Below, piece after piece: positions 7,422 to 17,155 of a stretch of 21,068 nucleotides of DNA. How positions within the stretch are numbered: the stretch's first letter is position 1; each line of letters opens with the position of its first letter. The stretch is taken from the IMG/VR virus record IMGVR_UViG_2778260996_000004. One strand, given 5' to 3'. Made by a program: the position numbers and the translations under genes. The notes beneath the pieces are model-generated. The model was given only the letters and a program-made list of their open reading frames with translations. It was not told the DNA's origin and searched no databases. This stretch comes from a virus (taxonomy: Duplodnaviria; Heunggongvirae; Uroviricota; Caudoviricetes).

Positions 7422-8929
7422 TGGCAATTCTTGATGATGTGATTGGCGTTTTTTCACCAGGATGGAAAGCGGCAAGGCTGCGTTCCCGTGCGGTGATCCA
7501 GGCTTATGAGGCCGTAAAAACGACGCGGACACACAAAGCCCGGCGGGAAAACCGAACTGCCGACCAGTTAAGCCAGTACGGGGCCGTGTCGTTACGTGAG
7601 CAGGCCCGTTACCTTGATAACAACCACGATCTGGTTATTGGTGTATTTGACAAGCTGGAAGAACGGGTGGTGGGGAAAAACGGGATTATTGTCGAGCCAC
7701 ATCCGGTATTACGCAATGGGGCCATTGCCCGTGATCTGGCAGCGGAGATACGCACCCGATGGAGTGAATGGTCTGTCAGCCCGGAAGTCACCGGGCAGTT
7801 TACCCGTCCGATGCTGGAACGTCTGATGTTGCGTACCTGGCTGCGCGATGGTGAGGTGTTTGCCCAGATGGTTTCCGGGCGCATAAACAACCTGACGCCT
7901 TCTGCCGGTGTTCATTTCTGGCTGGAGGCGCTCGAGCCAGACTTTATTCCCATGACCAGTGATGAGAGCAACAGGCTGAATCAGGGCGTGTTTGTTGATG
8001 ACTGGGGGCGTCCCGAAAAATATCTGGTGTATAAAAGTCGTCCCGTATCCTGGCGGCAGATGGAAACCAAAGAAGTGGATGCAGAGCGAATGCTGCATCT
8101 TAAATTTGTTCGCCGTCTGCACCAGATGCGCGGGACGTCTTTGTTGTCCGGTGTGCTGATCCGCCTCAGTGCCCTGAAAGAGTATGAAGATTCTGAGCTG
8201 ACTGCAGCAAGGGTCGCCGCTGCTCTGGGGATGTACATCCGGAAAGGCGACGGGCAGAGCTATGAACCGGATGGTAATGGCAGCAAGGAGAATGAACGCG
8301 AGCTTACCATTCAGCCAGGCATTATTTACGACGATCTGAAACCCGGCGAAGAAATCGGAATGGTGAAGTCGGATCGTCCCAATCCTAACCTTGAAACTTT
8401 TCGTAATGGTCAGTTGCGTGCCGTGGCGGCGGGCAGTCGTCTGAGTTTTTCCAGTACGGCACGCAACTATAACGGCACTTACAGCGCCCAGCGTCAGGAG
8501 CTGGTTGAATCCACAGATGGCTACCTGATCCTGCAGGACTGGTTTATTGGTGCCGTCACCCGCCCGATGTATCGTGCCTGGCTGAAACAGGCTGTGGCAT
8601 CCGGTGTTATCAGGCTACCCCGCGATCTTGACCGTTCTTCACTGTATACCGCGGTGTATTCCGGACCGGTGATGCCGTGGATTGACCCTGTTAAGGAGGC
8701 TGAGGCCTGGAAAATCCAGATTCGTGGTGGAGCGGCGACAGAATCAGACTGGGTACGTGCTGGTGGTCGTAATCCGGATGATGTCAAACGTCGGCGCAAG
8801 GCCGAAATTGATGAAAACCGCAAGCTGGATCTGGTATTTGATACCGATCCGGCCAGTGATAAAGGAGGCAGCAGTGCCGCAACGAAACGACAGGAGCCGC
8901 AGCACACCGACGACCAGTCCGAAGAATAA
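7421..8929 (+). CDS. portal protein
   Basis: 502 aa from ATG 7421; position after terminase and W; size and layout typical of lambda-family portals. Confidence 0.85.
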   Translation: MAILDDVIGVFSPGWKAARLRSRAVIQAYEAVKTTRTHKARRENRTADQLSQYGAVSLREQARYLDNNHDLVIGVFDKLEERVVGKNGIIVEPHPVLRNGAIARDLAAEIRTRWSEWSVSPEVTGQFTRPMLERLMLRTWLRDGEVFAQMVSGRINNLTPSAGVHFWLEALEPDFIPMTSDESNRLNQGVFVDDWGRPEKYLVYKSRPVSWRQMETKEVDAERMLHLKFVRRLHQMRGTSLLSGVLIRLSALKEYEDSELTAARVAAALGMYIRKGDGQSYEPDGNGSKENERELTIQPGIIYDDLKPGEEIGMVKSDRPNPNLETFRNGQLRAVAAGSRLSFSSTARNYNGTYSAQRQELVESTDGYLILQDWFIGAVTRPMYRAWLKQAVASGVIRLPRDLDRSSLYTAVYSGPVMPWIDPVKEAEAWKIQIRGGAATESDWVRAGGRNPDDVKRRRKAEIDENRKLDLVFDTDPASDKGGSSAATKRQEPQHTDDQSEE

Positions 8930-10901
8930 TTCTTGGTTCAGGATGCAGGCTGGTCACCAGAGTGACGCGGATATTTATATTTATGACGAGATTGGTTTCT
9001 GGGGTGTTACAGCGAAGCAGTTTATCAGTGATCTGAATGCACTGGGCGATATCACCCACATTAATCTCCATATCAATTCACCGGGTGGCGATGTCTTTGA
9101 AGGCATCGCCATTTTTAATGCACTGAAAACACATGGTGCGTCCATTACCGTTTATGTCGACGGTGTGGCGGCGTCAATGGCGTCGGTCATTGCGATGGTG
9201 GGAAACCCGGTCATTATGCCGGAAAACACCTTCATGATGATTCATAAACCATTTGGCTTTACGGGCGGTGATGCGGAGGACATGCGCACCTATGCCGACC
9301 TGCTCGATAAGGTTGAGGCGGTTCTGTTACCCGCTTATGCACAGAAAACCGGGAAAACCACCGATGAAATTGCTGCCATGCTGGCGGATGAGACCTGGAT
9401 GTCCGGTGCCGAATGTCTGGCACATGGATTTGCTGATCAGGTGACGCCAGCCGTTAAGGCAATGGCATGTATTCAGTCAAAACGTACAGAGGAATTTAAA
9501 AAGATGCCGGAATCCATTCGAAACATGATTACTCCGCCACGCAACAGTGCTCCACGCGTACAGGATGATGAACCTGCAGCCTCCCGGACGCCAGTGCAGG
9601 CAGCAGCACCCGTGGTGGATGAAAACAGCATCCGTGCGCAGGTACTGGCAGAGCAAAAAGCGCGTGTAAACGGTATTAATGATCTGTTTGCCATGTTTGG
9701 CGGGCGTTATCAGACGCTGCAGGCTCAGTGTCTTGCCGATCCTGAATGTTCGCTGGAGCAGGCCCGCGAAAAGCTGTTGAACGAGATGGGGCGCGAGTCC
9801 ACGCCATCCAATAAAAATACCCCGGCTCATATTTATGCCGGTAACGGTAATTTTGTGGGGGACGGGATTCGCCAGGCGCTGATGGCGCGTGCCGGATTTG
9901 AAAAAACCGAACGTGATAATGTCTACAACGGGATGACCCTGCGTGAATATGCCCGTATGTCACTGACTGAACGGGGTATTGGGATTTCCAGTTATAACCC
10001 GATGCAGATGGTCGGTGCGGCGTTCACACACAGTACGTCTGACTTCGGTAATATTCTGCTGGATGTTGCGAACAAAGCCATTCTGCAGGGCTGGGAAGAT
10101 GCCCCTGAAACCTATGAACAGTGGACGCGGAAAGGTCAGTTGTCTGATTTTAAAATTGCCCATCGTGTGGGTATGGGGGGCTTCAGTGCTCTGCGTCAGG
10201 TGCGTGAAGGGGCGGAATATAAATACGTCACCACCGGAGATAAACAGGCCACTATTGCACTGGCGACCTATGGCGAGCTGTTCAGTATCACCCGTCAGGC
10301 CATTATCAATGATGATCTGAATATGCTGACCGATGTCCCGATGAAGCTGGGCCGTGCGGCGAAATCCACTATTGCCGATCTGGTTTATGCCATTCTGACG
10401 TCTAACCCGAAAATCTCCACAGATAATGTAAGTCTGTTCGATAAAGCGAAACATGCAAACGTACTGGAGAGCGCTGCAATGGACGTGGCATCGCTGGATA
10501 AAGCCCGCCAGTTGATGCGCGTTCAGAAAGAGGGGGAGCGTCATCTGAATATTCGTCCTGCGTTCGTACTGGTACCGACGGCGATGGAGTCTGTTGCTAA
10601 CCAGGTCATTCGCTCCTCAAGTGTCAAGGGGGCTGACATTAACGCCGGTATTATTAACCCGGTGAAAGATTTTGCGACCGTTATTGCAGAGCCTCGTCTT
10701 GATGATAACAGCCAGACCACCTTCTACCTGGCTGCGTCAAAAGGCTCCGATACGATTGAAGTGGCTTATCTCAACGGTGTGGATACGCCATATATTGATC
10801 AGATGGAGGGCTTCAGTGTGGATGGCGTGACAACGAAAGTGCGTATTGACGCCGGTGTCGCGCCAGTTGATCACCGCGGTCTGGTGAAATGTACGGCGTA
10901 A
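8874..10901 (+). CDS. prohead protease (ClpP/S14-type) - scaffold-like linker - major capsid protein fusion
   Basis: N-terminal ClpP-like region (IYIYDEIGFWG...INSPGGDV...MASVIAMVG), then a long C-terminal domain in the major-capsid position. Start ambiguous: GTG 8874 has a strong SD (AAAGGAGG 8861-8868) but overlaps the portal 3' end; ATG 8943 lacks an SD. Confidence 0.8.
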   Translation: MPQRNDRSRSTPTTSPKNNSWFRMQAGHQSDADIYIYDEIGFWGVTAKQFISDLNALGDITHINLHINSPGGDVFEGIAIFNALKTHGASITVYVDGVAASMASVIAMVGNPVIMPENTFMMIHKPFGFTGGDAEDMRTYADLLDKVEAVLLPAYAQKTGKTTDEIAAMLADETWMSGAECLAHGFADQVTPAVKAMACIQSKRTEEFKKMPESIRNMITPPRNSAPRVQDDEPAASRTPVQAAAPVVDENSIRAQVLAEQKARVNGINDLFAMFGGRYQTLQAQCLADPECSLEQAREKLLNEMGRESTPSNKNTPAHIYAGNGNFVGDGIRQALMARAGFEKTERDNVYNGMTLREYARMSLTERGIGISSYNPMQMVGAAFTHSTSDFGNILLDVANKAILQGWEDAPETYEQWTRKGQLSDFKIAHRVGMGGFSALRQVREGAEYKYVTTGDKQATIALATYGELFSITRQAIINDDLNMLTDVPMKLGRAAKSTIADLVYAILTSNPKISTDNVSLFDKAKHANVLESAAMDVASLDKARQLMRVQKEGERHLNIRPAFVLVPTAMESVANQVIRSSSVKGADINAGIINPVKDFATVIAEPRLDDNSQTTFYLAASKGSDTIEVAYLNGVDTPYIDQMEGFSVDGVTTKVRIDAGVAPVDHRGLVKCTA

Positions 10902-10987: not shown

Positions 10988-11311
10988 ATGGCAAAGAATT
11001 TTGTAGAAGAAGGAAAAACGGTGGCGATTGTTGCCAGTGCAGCCATCAGCAGCGGAGACCTGGTGCAGGTGGGTGATGTTTTTGCGGTGGCGCTGACCGA
11101 TATTCCACAGGGTGAAACAGGCGACGGCCTGACCGAAGGTGTGTTTATGCTGCCTAAGCTGAAAACGGATGACATGAAAACGGGTAAGAAGGTTTATCTG
11201 AAGTCCGGAAAAGTTCAGCTGACTAACAGCGGCTCTGATCCGCTGGTCGGGGTTGTCTGGGCAGATGCCGGAACCAGTGCAGAAGAAGTGCCGGTAAAAC
11301 TCAATGTCTGA
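10988..11311 (+). CDS. small head-associated protein (107 aa), possibly DUF2190-like
   Basis: GGAG upstream of ATG 10988; position directly after the major capsid gene; Gly/Val-rich. Family assignment is from memory and weak. Confidence 0.5.
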   Translation: MAKNFVEEGKTVAIVASAAISSGDLVQVGDVFAVALTDIPQGETGDGLTEGVFMLPKLKTDDMKTGKKVYLKSGKVQLTNSGSDPLVGVVWADAGTSAEEVPVKLNV

Positions 11312-11579
11312 TCCCTTTTCCCGGCTGGCAGCGCGTATGGATGCGATCACGGTCAGAAAGATGGGAAAGACAGCCTCGATTAATGATGTCGATATGACTG
11401 TGATCCCGGGAGAAACACTGGCAGAGCTGAATGCTCTGTCCGGACCTGCGGTCTCTCTGGTGGTGTTTTCTTCGGGATACCGCCCACGGCGCGGGGATCG
11501 CGTTGTTTATGACGGACAACATTGGACGGTCACACGGCATGAACGCTTTAACGGTAAGCCAATGATCTTTATTGAGTAA
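11304..11579 (+). CDS. head-tail connector, FII-like
   Basis: 91 aa; sits where FII sits in lambda (before Z); RRGD motif similar to lambda FII; start overlaps the upstream stop (ATGTCTGA). Confidence 0.55.
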   Translation: MSDPFSRLAARMDAITVRKMGKTASINDVDMTVIPGETLAELNALSGPAVSLVVFSSGYRPRRGDRVVYDGQHWTVTRHERFNGKPMIFIE

Positions 11580-12589: not shown

Positions 12590-13333
12590 ATGACCACACC
12601 AAATCCACTGGCAAAGACGAAAGGTGCGGGGACGACGTTCTGGATGTATACCGGCAACGGCGATGCGTTTGCGAATCCTCTGTCGGACACTGACTGGCTG
12701 CGTCTTGCGATGGTGAAGGATCTGCAACCTGGCGAAATGACCGCTGATGCAGAAGATGACACTTATCTCGATGATGAAGATGCAGACTGGAAAACGACAA
12801 CCCAGGGGCAGAAATCCGTCGGTGATACTTCGGCGACGCTGGCCTGGCGTCCGGGTGACAGCGGGCAGAAAAAACTGGTTCAGTTGTTCGACTCCGGTGA
12901 AGTCTGCGCGTTTCGTATCAAATATCCCAACGGCACTGTTGATGTTTTCCGTGGCTGGCTGAGTTCACTGGGTAAAACCATTGCCTCAAAAGACGTGATG
13001 ACCCGCACCGTGAAAATCAGCGGTGTGGGGCGTCCATATCTGGCAGAGGAGGGCACTCAAACTGTGGGCGTTACCGGGCTGACGGTGGCACCGGCATCCG
13101 CCAGTGTCAATGTGGGAGCAACCACCACGCTGACCTTTACAGTAAAACCTGACGGAGCCAGTGACAAAGCGATCAGTGTGCATTCGACAGATCCACAGAC
13201 TGCCACGGTGACCCTGAACGGGCTTGTGGCCACGGTGAAAGGCGTGAAGCAGGGCAGTGTCAGCATTGTGGGCATGACTTCTGACGGCGATTTTGTGGCA
13301 GTGGCTACGGTGACTGTCAGCGCCGCAGGTTAA
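12590..13333 (+). CDS. V: major tail protein V with C-terminal Ig-like (Big_2-type) domain
   Basis: 247 aa from ATG 12590 (AAGGAGG RBS); strong similarity to lambda V (KGAGTT.W.Y.G.GD..ANPLSD.DW.RLA.VKDL.PGE...NGTVDVFRGW). Confidence 0.9.
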   Translation: MTTPNPLAKTKGAGTTFWMYTGNGDAFANPLSDTDWLRLAMVKDLQPGEMTADAEDDTYLDDEDADWKTTTQGQKSVGDTSATLAWRPGDSGQKKLVQLFDSGEVCAFRIKYPNGTVDVFRGWLSSLGKTIASKDVMTRTVKISGVGRPYLAEEGTQTVGVTGLTVAPASASVNVGATTTLTFTVKPDGASDKAISVHSTDPQTATVTLNGLVATVKGVKQGSVSIVGMTSDGDFVAVATVTVSAAG

Positions 13334-13354
13334 CAGGACGATACTCATCATTTG

Positions 13355-13377
13355 CCCCGGTTATCCGGGGCTTTTTT
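13355..13377 (+). terminator. intrinsic terminator-like hairpin between V and G
   Basis: CCCCGG-ttat-CCGGGG followed by CTTTTTT. Confidence 0.45.
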
Positions 13378-13390
13378 GCAGGTGGAGAAC

Positions 13391-13780
13391 ATGATGTTTC
13401 TGAAACAGGGCACGTTTAATTATGAAAAGCAGTCCGTGGTGCTCAGTGAGCTGTCCGGGCTGCAGAGAATTGAATATCTGGCGTTTGTTCAGCAGCGAAC
13501 GGCAAAGTTTGATGCCGAAGAGGGAGAACTGCCGGAGGCTGAACGACAGATTGCTTTTCTGCGGATGGGGATGGATATCAATGCCTGGCTGGTTTCCCGC
13601 TCACTGTGGAATGCGGAACAGTCTCAGGATGTTGAGACGCTTTGCGCATCCGTAATTACAACATGGTCGTATGATGCCCTGGGTGCGGGGGCGGAGATGG
13701 TTCTGTCGCTGAGCGGTATGGGAGCCATTGAGAATGCCGGGGATTTGGAGCATGAGGTGCTGACGCCGGAAAAGTCCTGA
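13391..13780 (+). CDS. G: tail assembly chaperone G
   Basis: 129 aa from ATG 13391; similarity to lambda G (MFLK...LSELS.LQRIE.LA). Confidence 0.8.
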   Translation: MMFLKQGTFNYEKQSVVLSELSGLQRIEYLAFVQQRTAKFDAEEGELPEAERQIAFLRMGMDINAWLVSRSLWNAEQSQDVETLCASVITTWSYDALGAGAEMVLSLSGMGAIENAGDLEHEVLTPEKS

Positions 13781-14118
13781 CGCGGGAAATGCAGTTTGTC
13801 ATGCGGCTTGCCCGGGAGTTCCGGCGGGCAGACTGGCGGCGGATGCTGTCGGAAATGTCGGCCACTGAGCTTGGGGAGTGGGGCGATTATTTCCGGATGC
13901 AGAGCTTCAGTGATGTGTGGATGGATGCGCAGTTTGCCTCGCTGAAGGCATTGATCGTGAGAATGGTGTCCGGCAGCAGTGATGCTGCGGTGGCTGATTT
14001 CAGCCTTTTACCGGAAGAGAACGGGATACCGGAGCGAACGGACGAAGAACTGATGCATCTTGGGGAAGGTATTTCCGGAGGTGTGCGTTATGGACCAGAT
14101 AGCCAACCTGGTCATTGA
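13756..14118 (+). CDS. T: T-frame segment of tail assembly chaperone G-T, reached by programmed -1 frameshift from G
   Basis: The -1 frame relative to G is open from 13756 to 14118 and overlaps the last 8 codons of G; A-rich candidate slip site CCG GAA AAG at 13766-13774; conserved G/GT architecture of siphovirus tails. Confidence 0.65.
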   Translation, partial: GADAGKVLTREMQFVMRLAREFRRADWRRMLSEMSATELGEWGDYFRMQSFSDVWMDAQFASLKALIVRMVSGSSDAAVADFSLLPEENGIPERTDEELMHLGEGISGGVRYGPDSQPGH

Positions 14119-17100
14119 TTTGGGGATTGATGCGGCAGAGTTTAAAAATGAAATTCCCCGTATCAAAAACCTTCTGAATGGTGCAGCCAGCGATGCAGAA
14201 CGGTCTTCTGCCCGTATGCAGCGTTTTATGGAGCGTCAGACTCAGGCCGCCCGGCAGACAACGCAGGCGGCTTCTTCGGCTGCAACAGCCGCATCCGTCC
14301 ATGCGCAGACGGTGGAGAAGAACGCACAGGCTCATGAACGCATGGCCCGCGAGGTGGAGAAAACCCGCCAGCGCATGGAGGCGCTGAGCCAGAAAATGCG
14401 CGAGGAACAGGCGCAGGCCATGGCTCTGGCGGAGGCTCAGGATAAAGCGGCTGCTGCGTTTTATCGTCAGATTGACAGTGTGAAACAGGCCAGTGCGGGG
14501 CTGCAGGAATTACAGCGTATTCAGCAGCAGATCCGACAGGCCAGAAACAGTGGCGGGATTGGTCAGCAGGATTATCTGGCGCTGATTTCTGAGGTTACGG
14601 CGAAAACCCGTGTTCTTACACAGGCTGAGGAAGAGGCTACCCGACAGAAAGTGGCGTTTATCCGTCAGCTTAAAGAGCAGGCAACCCGCCAGAATCTTTC
14701 TTCTTCTGAGTTGCTTCGTGCTAAGGCTGCCCAGCTGGGGGTAAGCAGTGCTGCAGAAGTGTATATCCGCAAAATGGAGCAGGCAGGAAAAGCCACGCAT
14801 TCGCTGGGTCTGAAAAGTGCAGCGGCCCGTCAGGAGATAGGCGTTCTGATAGGTGAACTGGCCCGCGGAAATTTAGGTGCGCTGAGGGGATCCGGAATAA
14901 CGCTGGCTAACCGTGCCGGGTGGATAGACACATTGATGTCACCGAAAGGCATGATGCTGGGCGGGGTTATTGGCGGTATTGCCGCGGCCGTCTATGGTCT
15001 GGGTAAAGCCTGGTATGACGGTCAGAAGGAGGGGGAAGAATTTAACCGCCAGCTGTCACTGACGGGGCATTATGCCGGAGTCACTGCCGGGCAGCTGTGG
15101 ACGCTCAGTCGTGCTATTTCCGGGAATGGTATCACGCAACATGCTGCAGCCGGTGCGCTGGCTCAGGTGGTGGGGAGTGGTGCATTTCGTGGAAACGATA
15201 TCGGTATGGTGGCGAGAGCTGCCGCAAAGATGGAGCGATCGGTTGGCCAGTCGGTCAGCGATACCATAAATCAGTTTAAGCGGCTGAAGGATGATCCTGT
15301 AAATGCCGCGAAGGCTCTGGACAATGAGCTGCATTTTCTTACTGCCACTCAGCTTGAGCAGATACGCGTCCTTGGGGATCAGGGGCGGTCCAGTGATGCG
15401 GCACGGATAGCCATGTCTGCACTGGCAGAGGAAACCGGTCGGCGTACTGCGGATATTGATAATAACCTCAATGCGCTGGGCAGTACGCTGAAGTATCTGT
15501 CTGATTTATGGAGTCGTTTCTGGGATGCGGCCATGAATATTGGTCGTGAAGACTCGCTGGATGAACAGATTGCCGCTTTACAGGAGAAAGTGTCGCGGGC
15601 GAAAAGACTCCCCTGGACGGCATCATCTTCTCAGGTTGAATACGATCAGCAGCGTCTTAACGATCTTCAGGAGAAAAAACGCCAGAAGGATTTGCAGGAT
15701 GCAAAAGAGCAGGCAGAGCGGAATTATCAGGAGCAACAGAAACGCCGTAATGCTGAAAATGCTGCACTGAACCGGATGAATGAAACGGAAGCAGCACGAC
15801 ATCAGCGTGAAATTGCGCGTATTAATGCCATGCAGTACGCCGATCAGGCTGTCAGGGATGCGGCGATACAACGTGAAAATGAACGTTACGAGAAAGCCAT
15901 TAAGAAAAAAACATCTGAAAACCGCAATGATGAAGCCACCCGGTTGCTGTTGCAGTACAGTCAGCAGCAGGCGCAGGTGGAGGGGCAGATCGCCGCCGCC
16001 AGACAGTCCGCGGGACTGACCACGGAAAAAATGACAGAGGCGCATAAGCAGCTTCTGGCCCTGCAGCAGCGTATCAGTGACCTGGCGGGTAAAAAGCTGA
16101 CAGCAGATGAAAAAAGCGTGCTGGCGCATAAGGATGAGCTGATTCAGGCACTGACGCTGCTGGATGCAAAACAGCAGGAGCTGCAGAAGCAGACGGCGCT
16201 GAATGACCTGAAGAAAAAATCCATTCAGCTTGCCAGCCAGCTGGCGGAAGAGGAACGGGCTCTGCGTCAGCAACATGACCTGGATATCGCCACAACAGGA
16301 ATGGGAGATAAGCAGCGTCAGCGGTACCAGACACAGTTCAGCCTGCAGCAAAAATATCAGCAGCAGATGGAGCAACTGGAGCGTGACAGTAAACAGAAAG
16401 GAACATACGGCACAGATGAATACCGGAATGCTGAGCAGATGCTGACAGACAGCCTTAACCGGCAACTGAACGAAAACAGACGCTACTGGCAGGAACAGGA
16501 ACTGATGCAGGCAGACTGGAAAAACGGTGCCATGCGGGCGTTTCAGAATTTTACAGAGAGTGCGGATAACGCAGCAGGTACCGCTGAGCAGATGTTTACA
16601 GCGGCATTTAACAGTGCAGGTAATGCACTGGCGACGTTCTGTACCACCGGAAAACTGAACTTCAGATCTTTTACCGCCTCGCTCCTTTCTGATCTGGCAA
16701 AAATCATGTCGCAGATGGTCATGATGCAGGCAGTGAAGGGGATTGGTTCGGCGTTTGGCTGGGGGAGTGCAGCAGCTGCCAGTGTGACACCAAATGCGGA
16801 TGGCGGTGTTTATCAGTCTGCTGATTTGAGTCGCTACAGTGGCACGGTGGTTAACCGTCCGACGTTTTTTGCTTTTGCAAAAGGCGCGGGTGTGATGGGG
16901 GAAGCTGGACCTGAAGCCATTCTGCCACTGCGTCGTGGTGCTGACGGTAAGCTGGGGGTTGTGGCGGATATTGGTGGTTCAGGTATGGCGATGTTTGCCC
17001 CGCAGTACAACATCGAGATCAATAACGATGGCACGAACGGGCAGATAGGTCCGGCTGCCCTGAAGGTGGTTTATGACCTTGGGAAAAAAGCGGCAGCGGA

Positions 17101-17155
17101 CTTTATGCAACAGCAGGCCCGTGATGGTGGTCGGTTAAGTGGAGCATATCGGTAA
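14090..17155 (+). CDS. H: tail tape measure protein H
   Basis: 1021 aa from ATG 14090 (GGAGG at 14077-14081); long coiled-coil-like Q/A/E/R-rich body; C-terminal region lambda-H-like; position between T and M. Confidence 0.9.
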   Translation: MDQIANLVIDLGIDAAEFKNEIPRIKNLLNGAASDAERSSARMQRFMERQTQAARQTTQAASSAATAASVHAQTVEKNAQAHERMAREVEKTRQRMEALSQKMREEQAQAMALAEAQDKAAAAFYRQIDSVKQASAGLQELQRIQQQIRQARNSGGIGQQDYLALISEVTAKTRVLTQAEEEATRQKVAFIRQLKEQATRQNLSSSELLRAKAAQLGVSSAAEVYIRKMEQAGKATHSLGLKSAAARQEIGVLIGELARGNLGALRGSGITLANRAGWIDTLMSPKGMMLGGVIGGIAAAVYGLGKAWYDGQKEGEEFNRQLSLTGHYAGVTAGQLWTLSRAISGNGITQHAAAGALAQVVGSGAFRGNDIGMVARAAAKMERSVGQSVSDTINQFKRLKDDPVNAAKALDNELHFLTATQLEQIRVLGDQGRSSDAARIAMSALAEETGRRTADIDNNLNALGSTLKYLSDLWSRFWDAAMNIGREDSLDEQIAALQEKVSRAKRLPWTASSSQVEYDQQRLNDLQEKKRQKDLQDAKEQAERNYQEQQKRRNAENAALNRMNETEAARHQREIARINAMQYADQAVRDAAIQRENERYEKAIKKKTSENRNDEATRLLLQYSQQQAQVEGQIAAARQSAGLTTEKMTEAHKQLLALQQRISDLAGKKLTADEKSVLAHKDELIQALTLLDAKQQELQKQTALNDLKKKSIQLASQLAEEERALRQQHDLDIATTGMGDKQRQRYQTQFSLQQKYQQQMEQLERDSKQKGTYGTDEYRNAEQMLTDSLNRQLNENRRYWQEQELMQADWKNGAMRAFQNFTESADNAAGTAEQMFTAAFNSAGNALATFCTTGKLNFRSFTASLLSDLAKIMSQMVMMQAVKGIGSAFGWGSAAAASVTPNADGGVYQSADLSRYSGTVVNRPTFFAFAKGAGVMGEAGPEAILPLRRGADGKLGVVADIGGSGMAMFAPQYNIEINNDGTNGQIGPAALKVVYDLGKKAAADFMQQQARDGGRLSGAYR

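What the first reader, a model, noticed from the sequence alone, without database searches (positions are those of the whole stretch)
13756..13790. Programmed -1 frameshift joining G to T
The T reading frame is open from 13756, overlapping the last 8 codons of G, and it is the -1 frame relative to G. This is the layout needed for the conserved G/GT tail-chaperone frameshift. The only A-rich candidate slip site is CCG GAA AAG (13766-13774), which differs from the lambda GGGAAAG heptamer as I recall it.
Basis: partly seen in the sequence, partly recalled or inferred. Interest (0 to 1): 0.45.

Follow-up and report, generated by a model that had tools for sequence, protein, structure and literature searches.

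The report
Lambda-type G/GT tail chaperone frameshift
This is the well-known -1 ribosomal frameshift that joins the phage tail-assembly genes G and T into a minor GT fusion protein; here it uses the slip sequence G_GAA_AAG, which is already annotated at the same spot in phages N15, phi80 and LLS, so the call is correct but ordinary.

Summary
G (13391-13780) ends in TGA at 13778. The T frame is the -1 frame and is open from 13756, after a TGA at 13753. The only shift-prone site in the overlap is G_GAA_AAG (13768-13774). G and T match the lambda G and T equivalog families and lie between the V and H homologues. The window is an E. coli lambdoid phage of the mEp460/cdtI/Ayreon type, and this module is in 1848 of 5426 complete E. 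coli genomes.

In 60 distinct homologous junctions from many enterobacterial genera, T is always -1 to G. An in-register A_AAG or A_AAA always lies in the overlap, and 46 carry exactly G_GAA_AAG. Lambda's G_GGA_AAG is the minority form (5). The residue before the heptamer varies, but the third base of its codon is G in 56 of 58 four-fold codons (background 0.41).

ATG 13789 has no Shine-Dalgarno pairing, occurs in only 5 of 64 distinct contexts, and 33 of 64 contexts have no start codon there at all. GenBank records for N15, phi80 and LLS annotate GGAAAAG in this register as the -1 slippery sequence.

Verdict: a correct call of a known mechanism. The slippage is not annotated in the close records examined for this clade. 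One small open question remains: this heptamer was used in vitro as a poorly slippery comparison.

The parts
13391..13780 (+). Gene G, the tail assembly chaperone and zero-frame product. It is 129 aa from ATG 13391, or 128 aa from ATG 13394 as PGAP calls it.
   Evidence: PF06894 Phage_TAC_2 E=1.8e-39; TIGR01674 phage_lambda_G equivalog E=9.7e-57; SD pairing -7.0 kcal/mol upstream.
13768..13774 (+). Slip heptamer G_GAA_AAG. The zero frame reads GAA (Glu) in the P site and AAG (Lys) in the A site; after the -1 slip the tRNAs pair with GGA and AAA.
   Evidence: It is the only in-register A_AAG in the overlap. It is identical in 46 of 60 distinct homologous contexts and invariant in 91 close copies. 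The same heptamer and register are annotated as the slippery sequence in N15, phi80 and LLS.
13753..13755 (+). TGA stop in the -1 frame. It sets the 5' limit of the window in which a -1 shift can be productive.
13778..13780 (+). G stop codon (TGA), one codon after the heptamer. It sets the 3' limit of the shift window.
   Evidence: Across the family the stop lies 0, 1 or 5 codons after the AAG.
13774..14118 (+). T segment in the -1 frame, read from the last base of the heptamer (GTC = Val) to TGA 14116-14118. It contributes 114 aa to the fusion. The predicted GT is 242 aa with junction ...LTPEK|VLTREMQF...
   Evidence: PF06223 E=5.1e-15; TIGR01715 phage_lam_T equivalog E=3.4e-40, with the profile starting at residue 5, which is upstream of Met 13789. 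The fusion is colinear with phi80, LLS, N15 and lambda GT through the junction.
13789..13791 (+). ATG used by PGAP and by phage annotators as the start of a stand-alone T. It is probably just an internal Met codon of GT.
   Evidence: Anti-SD duplex is only -1.1 kcal/mol. An ATG at this position occurs in 5 of 64 contexts, and it is CTG in Gifsy-1, Gifsy-2 and Fels-1.
13754..13759 (+). SD-like GAGGTG, 8 nt 5' of the heptamer. It is a possible dnaX-type 5' stimulator; this is inferred, not shown.
   Evidence: Anti-SD duplex -9.2 kcal/mol. An SD-like 4-mer lies at -17..-5 in 25 of 64 contexts, against 18% in a local control, and in 10 of 19 lineage groups. It is absent in the N15/phi80 group and in lambda.
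12590..13333 (+). Gene V, the major tail tube protein with a C-terminal Ig-like domain. It is the upstream neighbour that defines the synteny.
   Evidence: PF16461 E=1.5e-66 and PF02368. Coordinates were mapped from the Ayreon annotation.
14090..17155 (+). Gene H, the tape measure protein. It is the downstream neighbour, and its start overlaps the end of T by 29 nt.
   Evidence: PF06791, PF09718 and PF24622; SD pairing -13.3 kcal/mol.

Best explanation
A programmed -1 ribosomal frameshift at G_GAA_AAG (13768-13774) makes two proteins from one message. Most ribosomes translating G read GAA AAG TCC and stop at TGA 13778, giving the 129-aa chaperone G.

A minority slip back one base while tRNA-Glu sits on GAA and tRNA-Lys sits on AAG. 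E. coli's single tRNA-Lys (mnm5s2UUU) re-pairs with AAA. tRNA-Glu re-pairs with GGA, keeping positions 1 and 3 and forming a G.U at position 2. Translation then continues with GTC CTG ACG... in the T frame to 14118. The product is a 242-aa GT fusion with junction ...LTPEK-VLTREMQF...

By analogy with lambda, G and the G part of GT coat the tape measure protein H, and the T part recruits the tube protein V. The low GT:G ratio is fixed by the shift efficiency.

Shown here: the geometry, the homology, the nucleotide-level conservation of the heptamer including its first G, the lack of a conserved start codon for T, and the absence of a conserved 3' structure. Inferred: that the slip occurs, its efficiency (probably a few percent or less), tandem as opposed to single-tRNA slippage, and any help from the upstream GAGGTG.
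For: 1. Frames and overlap.
2. G and T hit the lambda G and T equivalog families and lie between V and H.
3. In every homologous locus analysed (76 of the 78 genome-contig loci) plus Gifsy-1, Gifsy-2, Fels-1 and lambda, a G-like ORF of about 130-185 codons (where the contig holds it whole) ends inside an open T frame that is -1 to it.
4. Of 60 distinct contexts, G_GAA_AAG is in 46, G_GGA_AAG in 5, G_GTA_AAG in 4, G_GCA_AAA in 2, A_GAA_AAG in 2 and G_GGA_AAA in 1. An in-register A_AAR is therefore universal.
5. The codon before the heptamer encodes A, P, L, T, V, K or M, yet ends in G in 56 of 58 four-fold cases. Background G3 is 0.41 and the binomial P is 8e-20, overstated by shared ancestry.
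6. Elsewhere in the G ORFs, E-K is GAA_AAG in only 28 of 63 dicodons.
7. DNA that is only 67-70% identical overall (Gifsy-1, Gifsy-2, Fels-1) keeps CCGGAAAAG exactly.
8. T-frame protein conservation (invariant E5 and F8) extends upstream of ATG 13789 back to the slip site.
9. ATG 13789 has -1.1 kcal/mol anti-SD pairing, against -7.0 for G and -13.3 for H. 33 of 64 contexts have no ATG, GTG or TTG between the slip site and the conserved LAR motif.
10. N15, phi80 and LLS annotate GGAAAAG in this register as the -1 slippery sequence, and phi80 and LLS carry joined G-T CDSs.
11. Atkins et al. 2016 (PMC5009743) describe the lambda G/GT 30:1 ratio and the shiftiness of A_AAG with E. coli tRNA-Lys.
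Against: There is no direct evidence of a GT protein for this phage or, as far as I could find, for any G_GAA_AAG carrier. The heptamer is not of the canonical X_XXY_YYZ form. Peng et al. 2019 (PMC6924986) used G GAA AAG in a reconstituted E. coli system as the 'less slippery / unfavorable' sequence and saw mainly 0-frame product. No conserved downstream stimulatory structure was found: the RNAalifold consensus energy is -2.4 kcal/mol and the window's own fold scores z = -1.0. None of the close phage or RefSeq records examined annotates the join, and the exact fusion sequence is absent from a 15-billion-protein collection. That shows an annotation habit, not biology.
Confidence: 0.9

Rival explanations
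1. T is made on its own by independent initiation at ATG 13789 (109 aa), as PGAP and most phage records annotate it, and no fusion is needed.
For: The ATG is 9 nt after the G stop, so termination-reinitiation coupling is conceivable. PGAP and the phage records annotate it this way. A 109-aa T is recorded on at least 1000 contigs.
Against: Anti-SD pairing is only -1.1 kcal/mol. This ATG is CTG in Gifsy-1, Gifsy-2 and Fels-1, and Gifsy-2 also lacks the next Met. An ATG at this position occurs in only 5 of 64 contexts, and 33 of 64 have no start codon at all before the conserved domain. T-frame residues upstream of the ATG are conserved. This model does not explain why the heptamer and its first G are conserved at synonymous sites. 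From my own knowledge of lambda (Levin et al. 1993), T sequences are made only as GT.
Confidence: 0.05
2. The shift is ribosomal, but only tRNA-Lys slips on the A_AAG tetramer, either in the A site or in the P site with an empty A site. tRNA-Glu re-pairing plays no part, and the conserved first G serves another purpose.
For: A_AAG alone is a known low-level shift site in E. coli, and its efficiency depends on the two 5' bases (Atkins 2016). The P-site codon varies across the family (GAA, GGA, GTA, GCA), while A_AAR is universal. [quoted passage not shown] The protein product would be identical.
Against: Heptamer position 1 is G in 56 of 58 four-fold codons although the amino acid varies. That is what P-site re-pairing of a GNA-reading tRNA onto GGN would select for, since it keeps first-position G:C pairing. 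Two Morganella contexts with A_GAA_AAG show the G is not absolute.
Confidence: 0.25
3. The GT reading frame is restored at the RNA level: RNA polymerase slips on the A run and deletes or adds a base in a fraction of transcripts.
For: The heptamer contains a run of four A. Transcriptional slippage does produce frame changes in some bacterial and phage genes (Atkins 2016).
Against: The run is only 4 A here and 3 A in the lambda-type and Pantoea-type sites. From my own knowledge, productive slippage needs runs of about 7 or more. The constraint on the register and on the G at position 1 fits codon-anticodon re-pairing, not polymerase slippage.
Confidence: 0.01

Closest known systems
Bacteriophage lambda G/GT programmed -1 frameshift (Levin, Hendrix and Casjens 1993; Xu, Hendrix and Duda 2004, 2013, 2014, as cited in PMC5009743)
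   Same: The V-G-T-H gene order is the same. G and T belong to the same equivalog families (TIGR01674, TIGR01715). T is in the -1 frame and overlaps the 3' end of G. The A-site slip is the same, A_AAG to AAA. Val is the first T-frame residue in both (K|V). No conserved 3' stimulatory structure was found.
   Different: The P-site codon is GAA (Glu), not GGA (Gly), so the heptamer is not the canonical X_XXY_YYZ and re-pairing leaves a second-position G.U. The G stop is 1 codon after the slip site, against 5 in lambda, and the overlap is 22 nt against 61. GT is 34% identical to lambda GT. T lacks lambda's C-terminal duplication.
Phage N15 genes 14/15, phi80 gpG/gpG-T and phage LLS genes 11/12 (GenBank NC_001901, FN582354, PQ299149)
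   Same: The heptamer GGAAAAG is identical, in the identical register (G_GAA_AAG). It is annotated there as the 'slippery sequence for -1 translational frameshift', and phi80 and LLS carry joined CDSs. The junction is EK|(A/V)L.
   Different: GT is only 37-38% identical. In those phages G continues for 5 codons after the slip, against 1 here. They lack the SD-like element that sits 8-10 nt upstream in this clade.
Gifsy-1, Gifsy-2 and Fels-1 prophages of Salmonella LT2
   Same: These are the closest named relatives outside E. coli, at 67-70% nucleotide identity. They keep CCGGAAAAG followed by one codon and then TGA. The Gifsy-1 and Gifsy-2 records describe T as part of a G frameshift hybrid.
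   Different: They have CTG where this window has ATG 13789, and their overlap is 28 nt.
E. coli dnaX -1 frameshift (A_AAA_AAG with a 5' SD-like element and a 3' hairpin)
   Same: It uses the same A-site event, tRNA-Lys moving from AAG to AAA. This window has an SD-like GAGGTG 8 nt upstream of the heptamer, close to the 10-nt spacing of dnaX (the dnaX cassette sequence is in PMC6924986).
   Different: There is no 3' hairpin here. The P-site codon is not slippery. The SD-like element is not conserved family-wide (10 of 19 lineage groups) and its effect is untested. dnaX efficiency is very high, whereas a low ratio is expected here.

Membership tests
Lambda-type G/GT tail assembly chaperone frameshift | Two short ORFs lie between the major tail tube gene and the tape measure gene | tested here: met
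   V (PF16461) is at 12590-13333, G at 13391-13780, T up to 14118, and H (PF06791, PF09718) at 14090-17155.
Lambda-type G/GT tail assembly chaperone frameshift | The upstream ORF is homologous to gpG | tested here: met
   PF06894 E=1.8e-39; TIGR01674 equivalog at 190.7 bits against a cut-off of 74.45.
Lambda-type G/GT tail assembly chaperone frameshift | The downstream ORF is homologous to gpT | tested here: met
   PF06223 E=5.1e-15; TIGR01715 equivalog at 136.8 bits against a cut-off of 77.35.
Lambda-type G/GT tail assembly chaperone frameshift | The downstream ORF is in the -1 frame and is open across the 3' end of G | tested here: met
   The -1 frame is open from 13756 and the G stop is at 13778. 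The same holds in all homologous loci analysed.
Lambda-type G/GT tail assembly chaperone frameshift | A canonical X_XXY_YYZ slippery heptamer lies in register inside the overlap | tested here: not met
   The site is G_GAA_AAG. The YYZ part (A_AAG) is canonical, but XXY = GAA is not GGA, so P-site re-pairing onto GGA has a second-position G.U. This non-canonical form is the majority in the family, 46 of 60, and is the annotated site in N15, phi80 and LLS. The strict pattern therefore does not define membership of this family.
Lambda-type G/GT tail assembly chaperone frameshift | The shift-prone site is conserved at nucleotide level among relatives beyond what the protein requires | tested here: met
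   The first G of the heptamer is kept in 56 of 58 four-fold codons although the residue varies (background 0.41). GAA_AAG is fixed at this position, whereas it makes up 28 of 63 E-K dicodons elsewhere in the G ORFs.
Lambda-type G/GT tail assembly chaperone frameshift | T has no translation start of its own | tested here: inconclusive
   An ATG exists at 13789, but it has no SD pairing (-1.1 kcal/mol). An ATG at that position occurs in only 5 of 64 contexts, and 33 of 64 contexts have no start codon at all. Initiation cannot be excluded from sequence alone.
Lambda-type G/GT tail assembly chaperone frameshift | A GT fusion protein is produced at a low, fixed ratio to G (about 1:30 in lambda) and is required for tail assembly | not testable with these tools
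   This needs a western blot, mass spectrometry, a reporter assay or genetics. The lambda ratio is taken from PMC5009743.
dnaX-type 5' Shine-Dalgarno-like frameshift stimulator | An SD-like sequence lies about 6-17 nt upstream of the shift site | tested here: met
   GAGGTG is at 13754-13759, with 8 nt to the heptamer and an anti-SD duplex of -9.2 kcal/mol.
dnaX-type 5' Shine-Dalgarno-like frameshift stimulator | The element is conserved with the shift site and stimulates shifting | tested here: inconclusive
   It is present in 25 of 64 contexts, against 18% in a local control, and in 10 of 19 lineage groups. It is absent from the N15/phi80 group and from lambda. The region codes for an acidic tail rich in GAG and GAA, which produces such words by chance. 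Stimulation is untested.

The most novel reading that the evidence does not exclude
G_GAA_AAG has a second-position mismatch on P-site re-pairing and was used in vitro as the 'unfavorable for slippage' comparison. It is nevertheless the dominant, purifying-selected shift site of enterobacterial lambda-like G/T genes, with its first G conserved at synonymous level. The most novel reading is that this site works through a non-standard route. One possibility is that tRNA-Glu (mnm5s2U34) tolerates a middle-position G.U in the P site. Another is that the site depends on context stimulators such as the upstream GAGGTG or the nearby stop codon. Under this reading the choice between GAA and GGA tunes the GT:G ratio to tail length or assembly kinetics.
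Probability: 0.12. Interest if true: 0.45.

Novelty: already known. Interest (0 to 1): 0.15.

Why it matters
There are two practical points.

**Annotation.** This G-T module is in 1848 of 5426 complete E. coli genomes. In every close record I examined, T is annotated as a stand-alone 109-aa protein starting at an ATG that is probably never used as a start. The exact predicted 242-aa GT fusion is absent from a 15-billion-protein collection. Pipelines could add the slippage join by homology to N15 and phi80.

**Mechanism.** The survey shows that lambda's textbook G_GGA_AAG is the minority form (5 of 60 contexts) and that G_GAA_AAG is the norm (46 of 60), with clear synonymous-site constraint on heptamer position 1. 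That gives frameshift specialists a natural, strongly selected example of a heptamer with a P-site second-position mismatch, which a reconstituted system scored as poorly slippery. It is a modest refinement and not a new phenomenon.

Tried and rejected
1. **Downstream stimulatory structure.** The window's 96 nt after the heptamer fold at -39.9 kcal/mol, with z = -1.0 against shuffles. The RNAalifold consensus of 16 diverse homologues is -2.4 kcal/mol with essentially no covariation. Rejected.
2. **Enrichment of the word GGAAAAG in the window.** 4 copies against 3.25 expected. Not informative.
3. **Within-clade polymorphism.** The heptamer is invariant in 91 copies and 63 haplotypes, but only about 1 variable site would be expected in 7 nt. 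Weak evidence alone.
4. **The +1 frame model.** The +1 model finds only short upstream ORFs (6-102 codons, mostly under 65). Rejected.
5. **Other slip sites in the overlap.** No other in-register A_AAR or X_XXY_YYZ lies between 13756 and 13777. The GGGAAAT at 13784-13790 is downstream of the G stop and cannot serve.
6. **Literature.** Xu et al. 2004 (Mol Cell) and Licznar et al. 2003 (EMBO J) are not held. Searches for GGAAAAG or 'G GAA AAG' with frameshift, phage or slippery terms returned only Peng et al. 2019 as relevant. I therefore could not establish whether any G_GAA_AAG G/T site has been tested experimentally.
7. **Exact look-up of the predicted GT fusion (242 and 241 aa).** Not in the collection.
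8. **SD-like stimulator as a family-wide feature.** Rejected as universal (10 of 19 lineage groups). Kept only as a clade-level hypothesis.

Full report
**What is in the sequence.**
G runs in the frame whose codons start at positions with mod3=2. It starts at ATG 13391 (or the adjacent ATG 13394) and ends ...GTG CTG ACG CCG GAA AAG TCC TGA, with the stop at 13778-13780. The frame one base back (mod3=1) has a TGA at 13753-13755 and is then open from 13756 to TGA 14116-14118. Inside that overlap the only in-register shift-prone sequence is G_GAA_AAG at 13768-13774.

**Is it more than chance?**
The bare heptamer is not enriched in the window: 4 copies against 3.25 expected. Its placement is what stands out. 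In-register A_AAG occurs at 13 of 5289 codons in the window's 17 main ORFs, so about 0.017 would be expected in a 7-codon overlap. The site at 13772 is followed by 115 open -1 codons, against at most 37 for the other twelve.

**What the genes are.**
- The upstream ORF matches Pfam Phage_TAC_2 (E=1.8e-39) and the NCBIfam equivalog phage_lambda_G (E=9.7e-57).
- The -1 frame matches Phage_tail_T (E=5.1e-15) and the equivalog phage_lam_T (E=3.4e-40).
- The neighbours are a lambda-type tube protein V with an Ig-like domain and a lambda-type tape measure H.
- The rest of the window is a lambdoid late region: terminase, lambda-family portal, a ClpP-capsid ORF, Z, U, then M, L, K and I.

At DNA level the G-T segment is 97.5-99.3% identical to E. 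coli phages Ayreon, phi458, cdtI, mEp460 and relatives. It is present in 1848 of 5426 complete E. coli genomes. None of the close records I examined joins G to T. PGAP calls T from the ATG at 13789, and Ayreon calls it from a later start.

**Comparative evidence.**
Gifsy-1, Gifsy-2 and Fels-1 are only 67-70% identical in DNA. They keep CC GGAAAAG (T/C)CC TGA exactly and have the same -1 geometry.

A scan of one genome per species with a T-protein profile returned 78 loci from Escherichia, Citrobacter, Kluyvera, Kosakonia, Enterobacter, Klebsiella, Pantoea, Proteus, Providencia, Morganella, Edwardsiella, Sodalis and others. In all 76 loci that could be analysed, a G-like ORF of about 130-185 codons (where the contig holds it whole) ends inside an open T frame that is -1 to it. 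The +1 alternative never gives a comparable ORF.

Among 60 distinct 120-nt contexts the in-register heptamers are:

| Heptamer | Contexts | Note |
|---|---|---|
| G_GAA_AAG | 46 | this window's form |
| G_GGA_AAG | 5 | lambda type |
| G_GTA_AAG | 4 | Pantoea |
| G_GCA_AAA | 2 | |
| A_GAA_AAG | 2 | Morganella |
| G_GGA_AAA | 1 | |

The A-site element A_AAR is therefore universal, and the window's heptamer is the family norm, not an oddity.

The constraint acts on nucleotides and not on protein. The residue before the heptamer is A, P, L, T, V, K or M, yet its codon ends in G in 56 of 58 four-fold cases. Background G3 in the same ORFs is 0.41, giving a binomial P of 8e-20, which shared ancestry overstates. 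GAA_AAG is fixed at this position, whereas it accounts for only 28 of 63 E-K dicodons elsewhere in the G ORFs. Within the close clade the heptamer is invariant in 91 copies and 63 haplotypes, with polymorphic sites at 13758 and 13777 on either side. That is weak evidence on its own.

**Independent initiation of T.**
- The ATG at 13789 has -1.1 kcal/mol of anti-SD pairing, against -7.0 for G and -13.3 for H.
- It is CTG in Gifsy-1, Gifsy-2 and Fels-1, and Gifsy-2 also lacks the following Met.
- Across 64 distinct contexts an ATG at that position occurs in 5, and 33 have no ATG, GTG or TTG anywhere between the slip site and the conserved LAR motif.
- T-frame residues upstream of that ATG are conserved (invariant E5 and F8), and the equivalog profile starts upstream of it.
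- The predicted fusion (128 aa of G through Lys, then VLTREMQF..., 242 aa in all) aligns colinearly through the junction with the joined gpG-T proteins of phi80 and LLS and with N15 and lambda GT.

**Prior knowledge.**
GenBank records for N15 (misc_feature 10027-10033), phi80 (10194-10200, with a joined gpG-T CDS) and LLS ('minus-one programmed translational frameshift site GGAAAAG', also joined) mark exactly GGAAAAG in exactly this register. The Gifsy-1 and Gifsy-2 records describe T as part of a G frameshift hybrid.

The biology of lambda G/GT is summarised in Atkins et al. 2016, PMC5009743: a 30:1 ratio, G binding the tape measure, and T recruiting the tube protein. The same review describes the shiftiness of A_AAG with E. 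coli's single tRNA-Lys and its dependence on the 5' context.

The finding is therefore a correct recognition of a known mechanism, using a heptamer that is already annotated in homologues.

**Mechanistic detail and what is left open.**
The likely event is tandem slippage: tRNA-Lys moves from AAG to AAA, and tRNA-Glu moves from GAA to GGA with a second-position G.U. The conservation of heptamer position 1 argues that P-site re-pairing matters. The variability of the P-site codon across the family (GAA, GGA, GTA, GCA) shows that re-pairing need not be perfect.

Peng et al. 2019 (PMC6924986) used AUG GAA AAG as the 'less slippery / unfavorable' comparison to G GGA AAG in a reconstituted system and saw mainly 0-frame product. 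This is compatible with a site that only needs to deliver a few percent of GT, but the actual efficiency here is unknown.

I looked for stimulators:
- There is no conserved 3' structure.
- An SD-like GAGGTG lies 8 nt 5' of the heptamer (anti-SD duplex -9.2 kcal/mol), close to the dnaX spacing.
- SD-like 4-mers at -17..-5 occur in 25 of 64 contexts, against 18% in a local control. They are present in only 10 of 19 lineage groups and absent from the N15/phi80 group and from lambda.
- This part of G codes for an acidic tail, which generates such words by chance.

I keep the SD-like element as a clade-level hypothesis only.

**Limits.**
No experiment was possible. I could not read Xu et al. 2004 or Licznar et al. 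2003, so I cannot say whether a G_GAA_AAG G/T site has been verified at the protein level. The binomial P-values ignore phylogenetic non-independence. The grouping of the contexts into 19 lineage groups is only a crude guide to how many independent observations there are.

**Verdict.**
Novelty is 'already known' and interest is low (0.15). There are two useful by-products. First, the slippage is missing from every close phage and RefSeq record I examined for this very common E. coli prophage module, and the exact fusion protein is in no public protein collection searched. Second, G_GAA_AAG, and not lambda's G_GGA_AAG, is the prevailing shift site in this family.

Noticed in passing
window 13354-13377 (+): A strong intrinsic-terminator-like hairpin (GCCCCGG TTAT CCGGGGC, then T6) sits between V and G inside the late operon. 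The same spot is annotated as a terminator or stem-loop in the Ayreon, mEp460, N15 and HK225 records. It may lower expression of G, T and H relative to V unless it is antiterminated.
   Followed up: partly
window 11363-11369 (+), inside ORF 11304-11579: A canonical lambda-type G_GGA_AAG lies in register inside the PF13856 (Gifsy-2 family) head-tail gene. The -1 frame is open for only 5 codons, so a slip would just truncate the protein. It is probably incidental.
   Followed up: partly
window 13423-13429 (+): There is a second in-frame GAA_AAG early in G (T_GAA_AAG, codons 12-13). The -1 frame is open for only 7 codons. It lacks the G at position 1 that is conserved at the real site.
   Followed up: partly
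window 13754-13759 (+): An SD-like GAGGTG lies 8 nt upstream of the slip heptamer (anti-SD duplex -9.2 kcal/mol), at a dnaX-like spacing. Comparable elements are present in 10 of 19 lineage groups but absent from the N15/phi80 group and from lambda. It could also be a by-product of the acidic C-terminal tail of G.
   Followed up: partly
loci L060-L072 and L080-L084: Lambda G/T junctions with one identical 120-nt context sit on short, low-coverage contigs of assemblies titled Neobacillus, Kitasatospora, Oceanobacillus, Shewanella, Pseudomonas, Chromatium, Leeuwenhoekiella, Paenibacillus, Enterococcus and others. This looks like lambda DNA contamination of those assemblies. MAGs titled 'Bacillota bacterium' (L009) and 'Geobacteraceae' (L051) carry enterobacterial prophage G/T, which suggests mis-binning.
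   Followed up: no
loci L016, L018, L020, L021, L052-L057, L058: The family has rarer heptamer variants: Pantoea G_GTA_AAG, Morganella A_GAA_AAG, Kluyvera and Ewingella G_GCA_AAA followed directly by TAG, and Providencia G_GGA_AAA followed by TAG. In 11 contexts the G stop codon directly abuts the slip site.
   Followed up: partly
window 8682-10901 (+): A ClpP-type protease domain (PF00574) and a capsid domain (PF25209) lie in one long ORF. This is a protease-capsid fusion arrangement that differs from lambda's C/Nu3/E layout. A T_AAA_AAG lies in register at 9497-9503 with 22 open -1 codons.
   Followed up: no
window 14076-14118 (+): The end of T overlaps the start of the tape measure gene H by 29 nt. 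H's strong SD (GGAGGTG, -13.3 kcal/mol) is embedded in the conserved GGVRYG-coding end of T.
   Followed up: no
window 13394-13777 and 13789-14115: The separate G (128 aa) and T (109 aa) proteins are each recorded on at least 1000 contigs in public collections. The exact predicted GT fusion (242 or 241 aa) is recorded nowhere, which indicates a systematic annotation gap for this prophage clade.
   Followed up: yes
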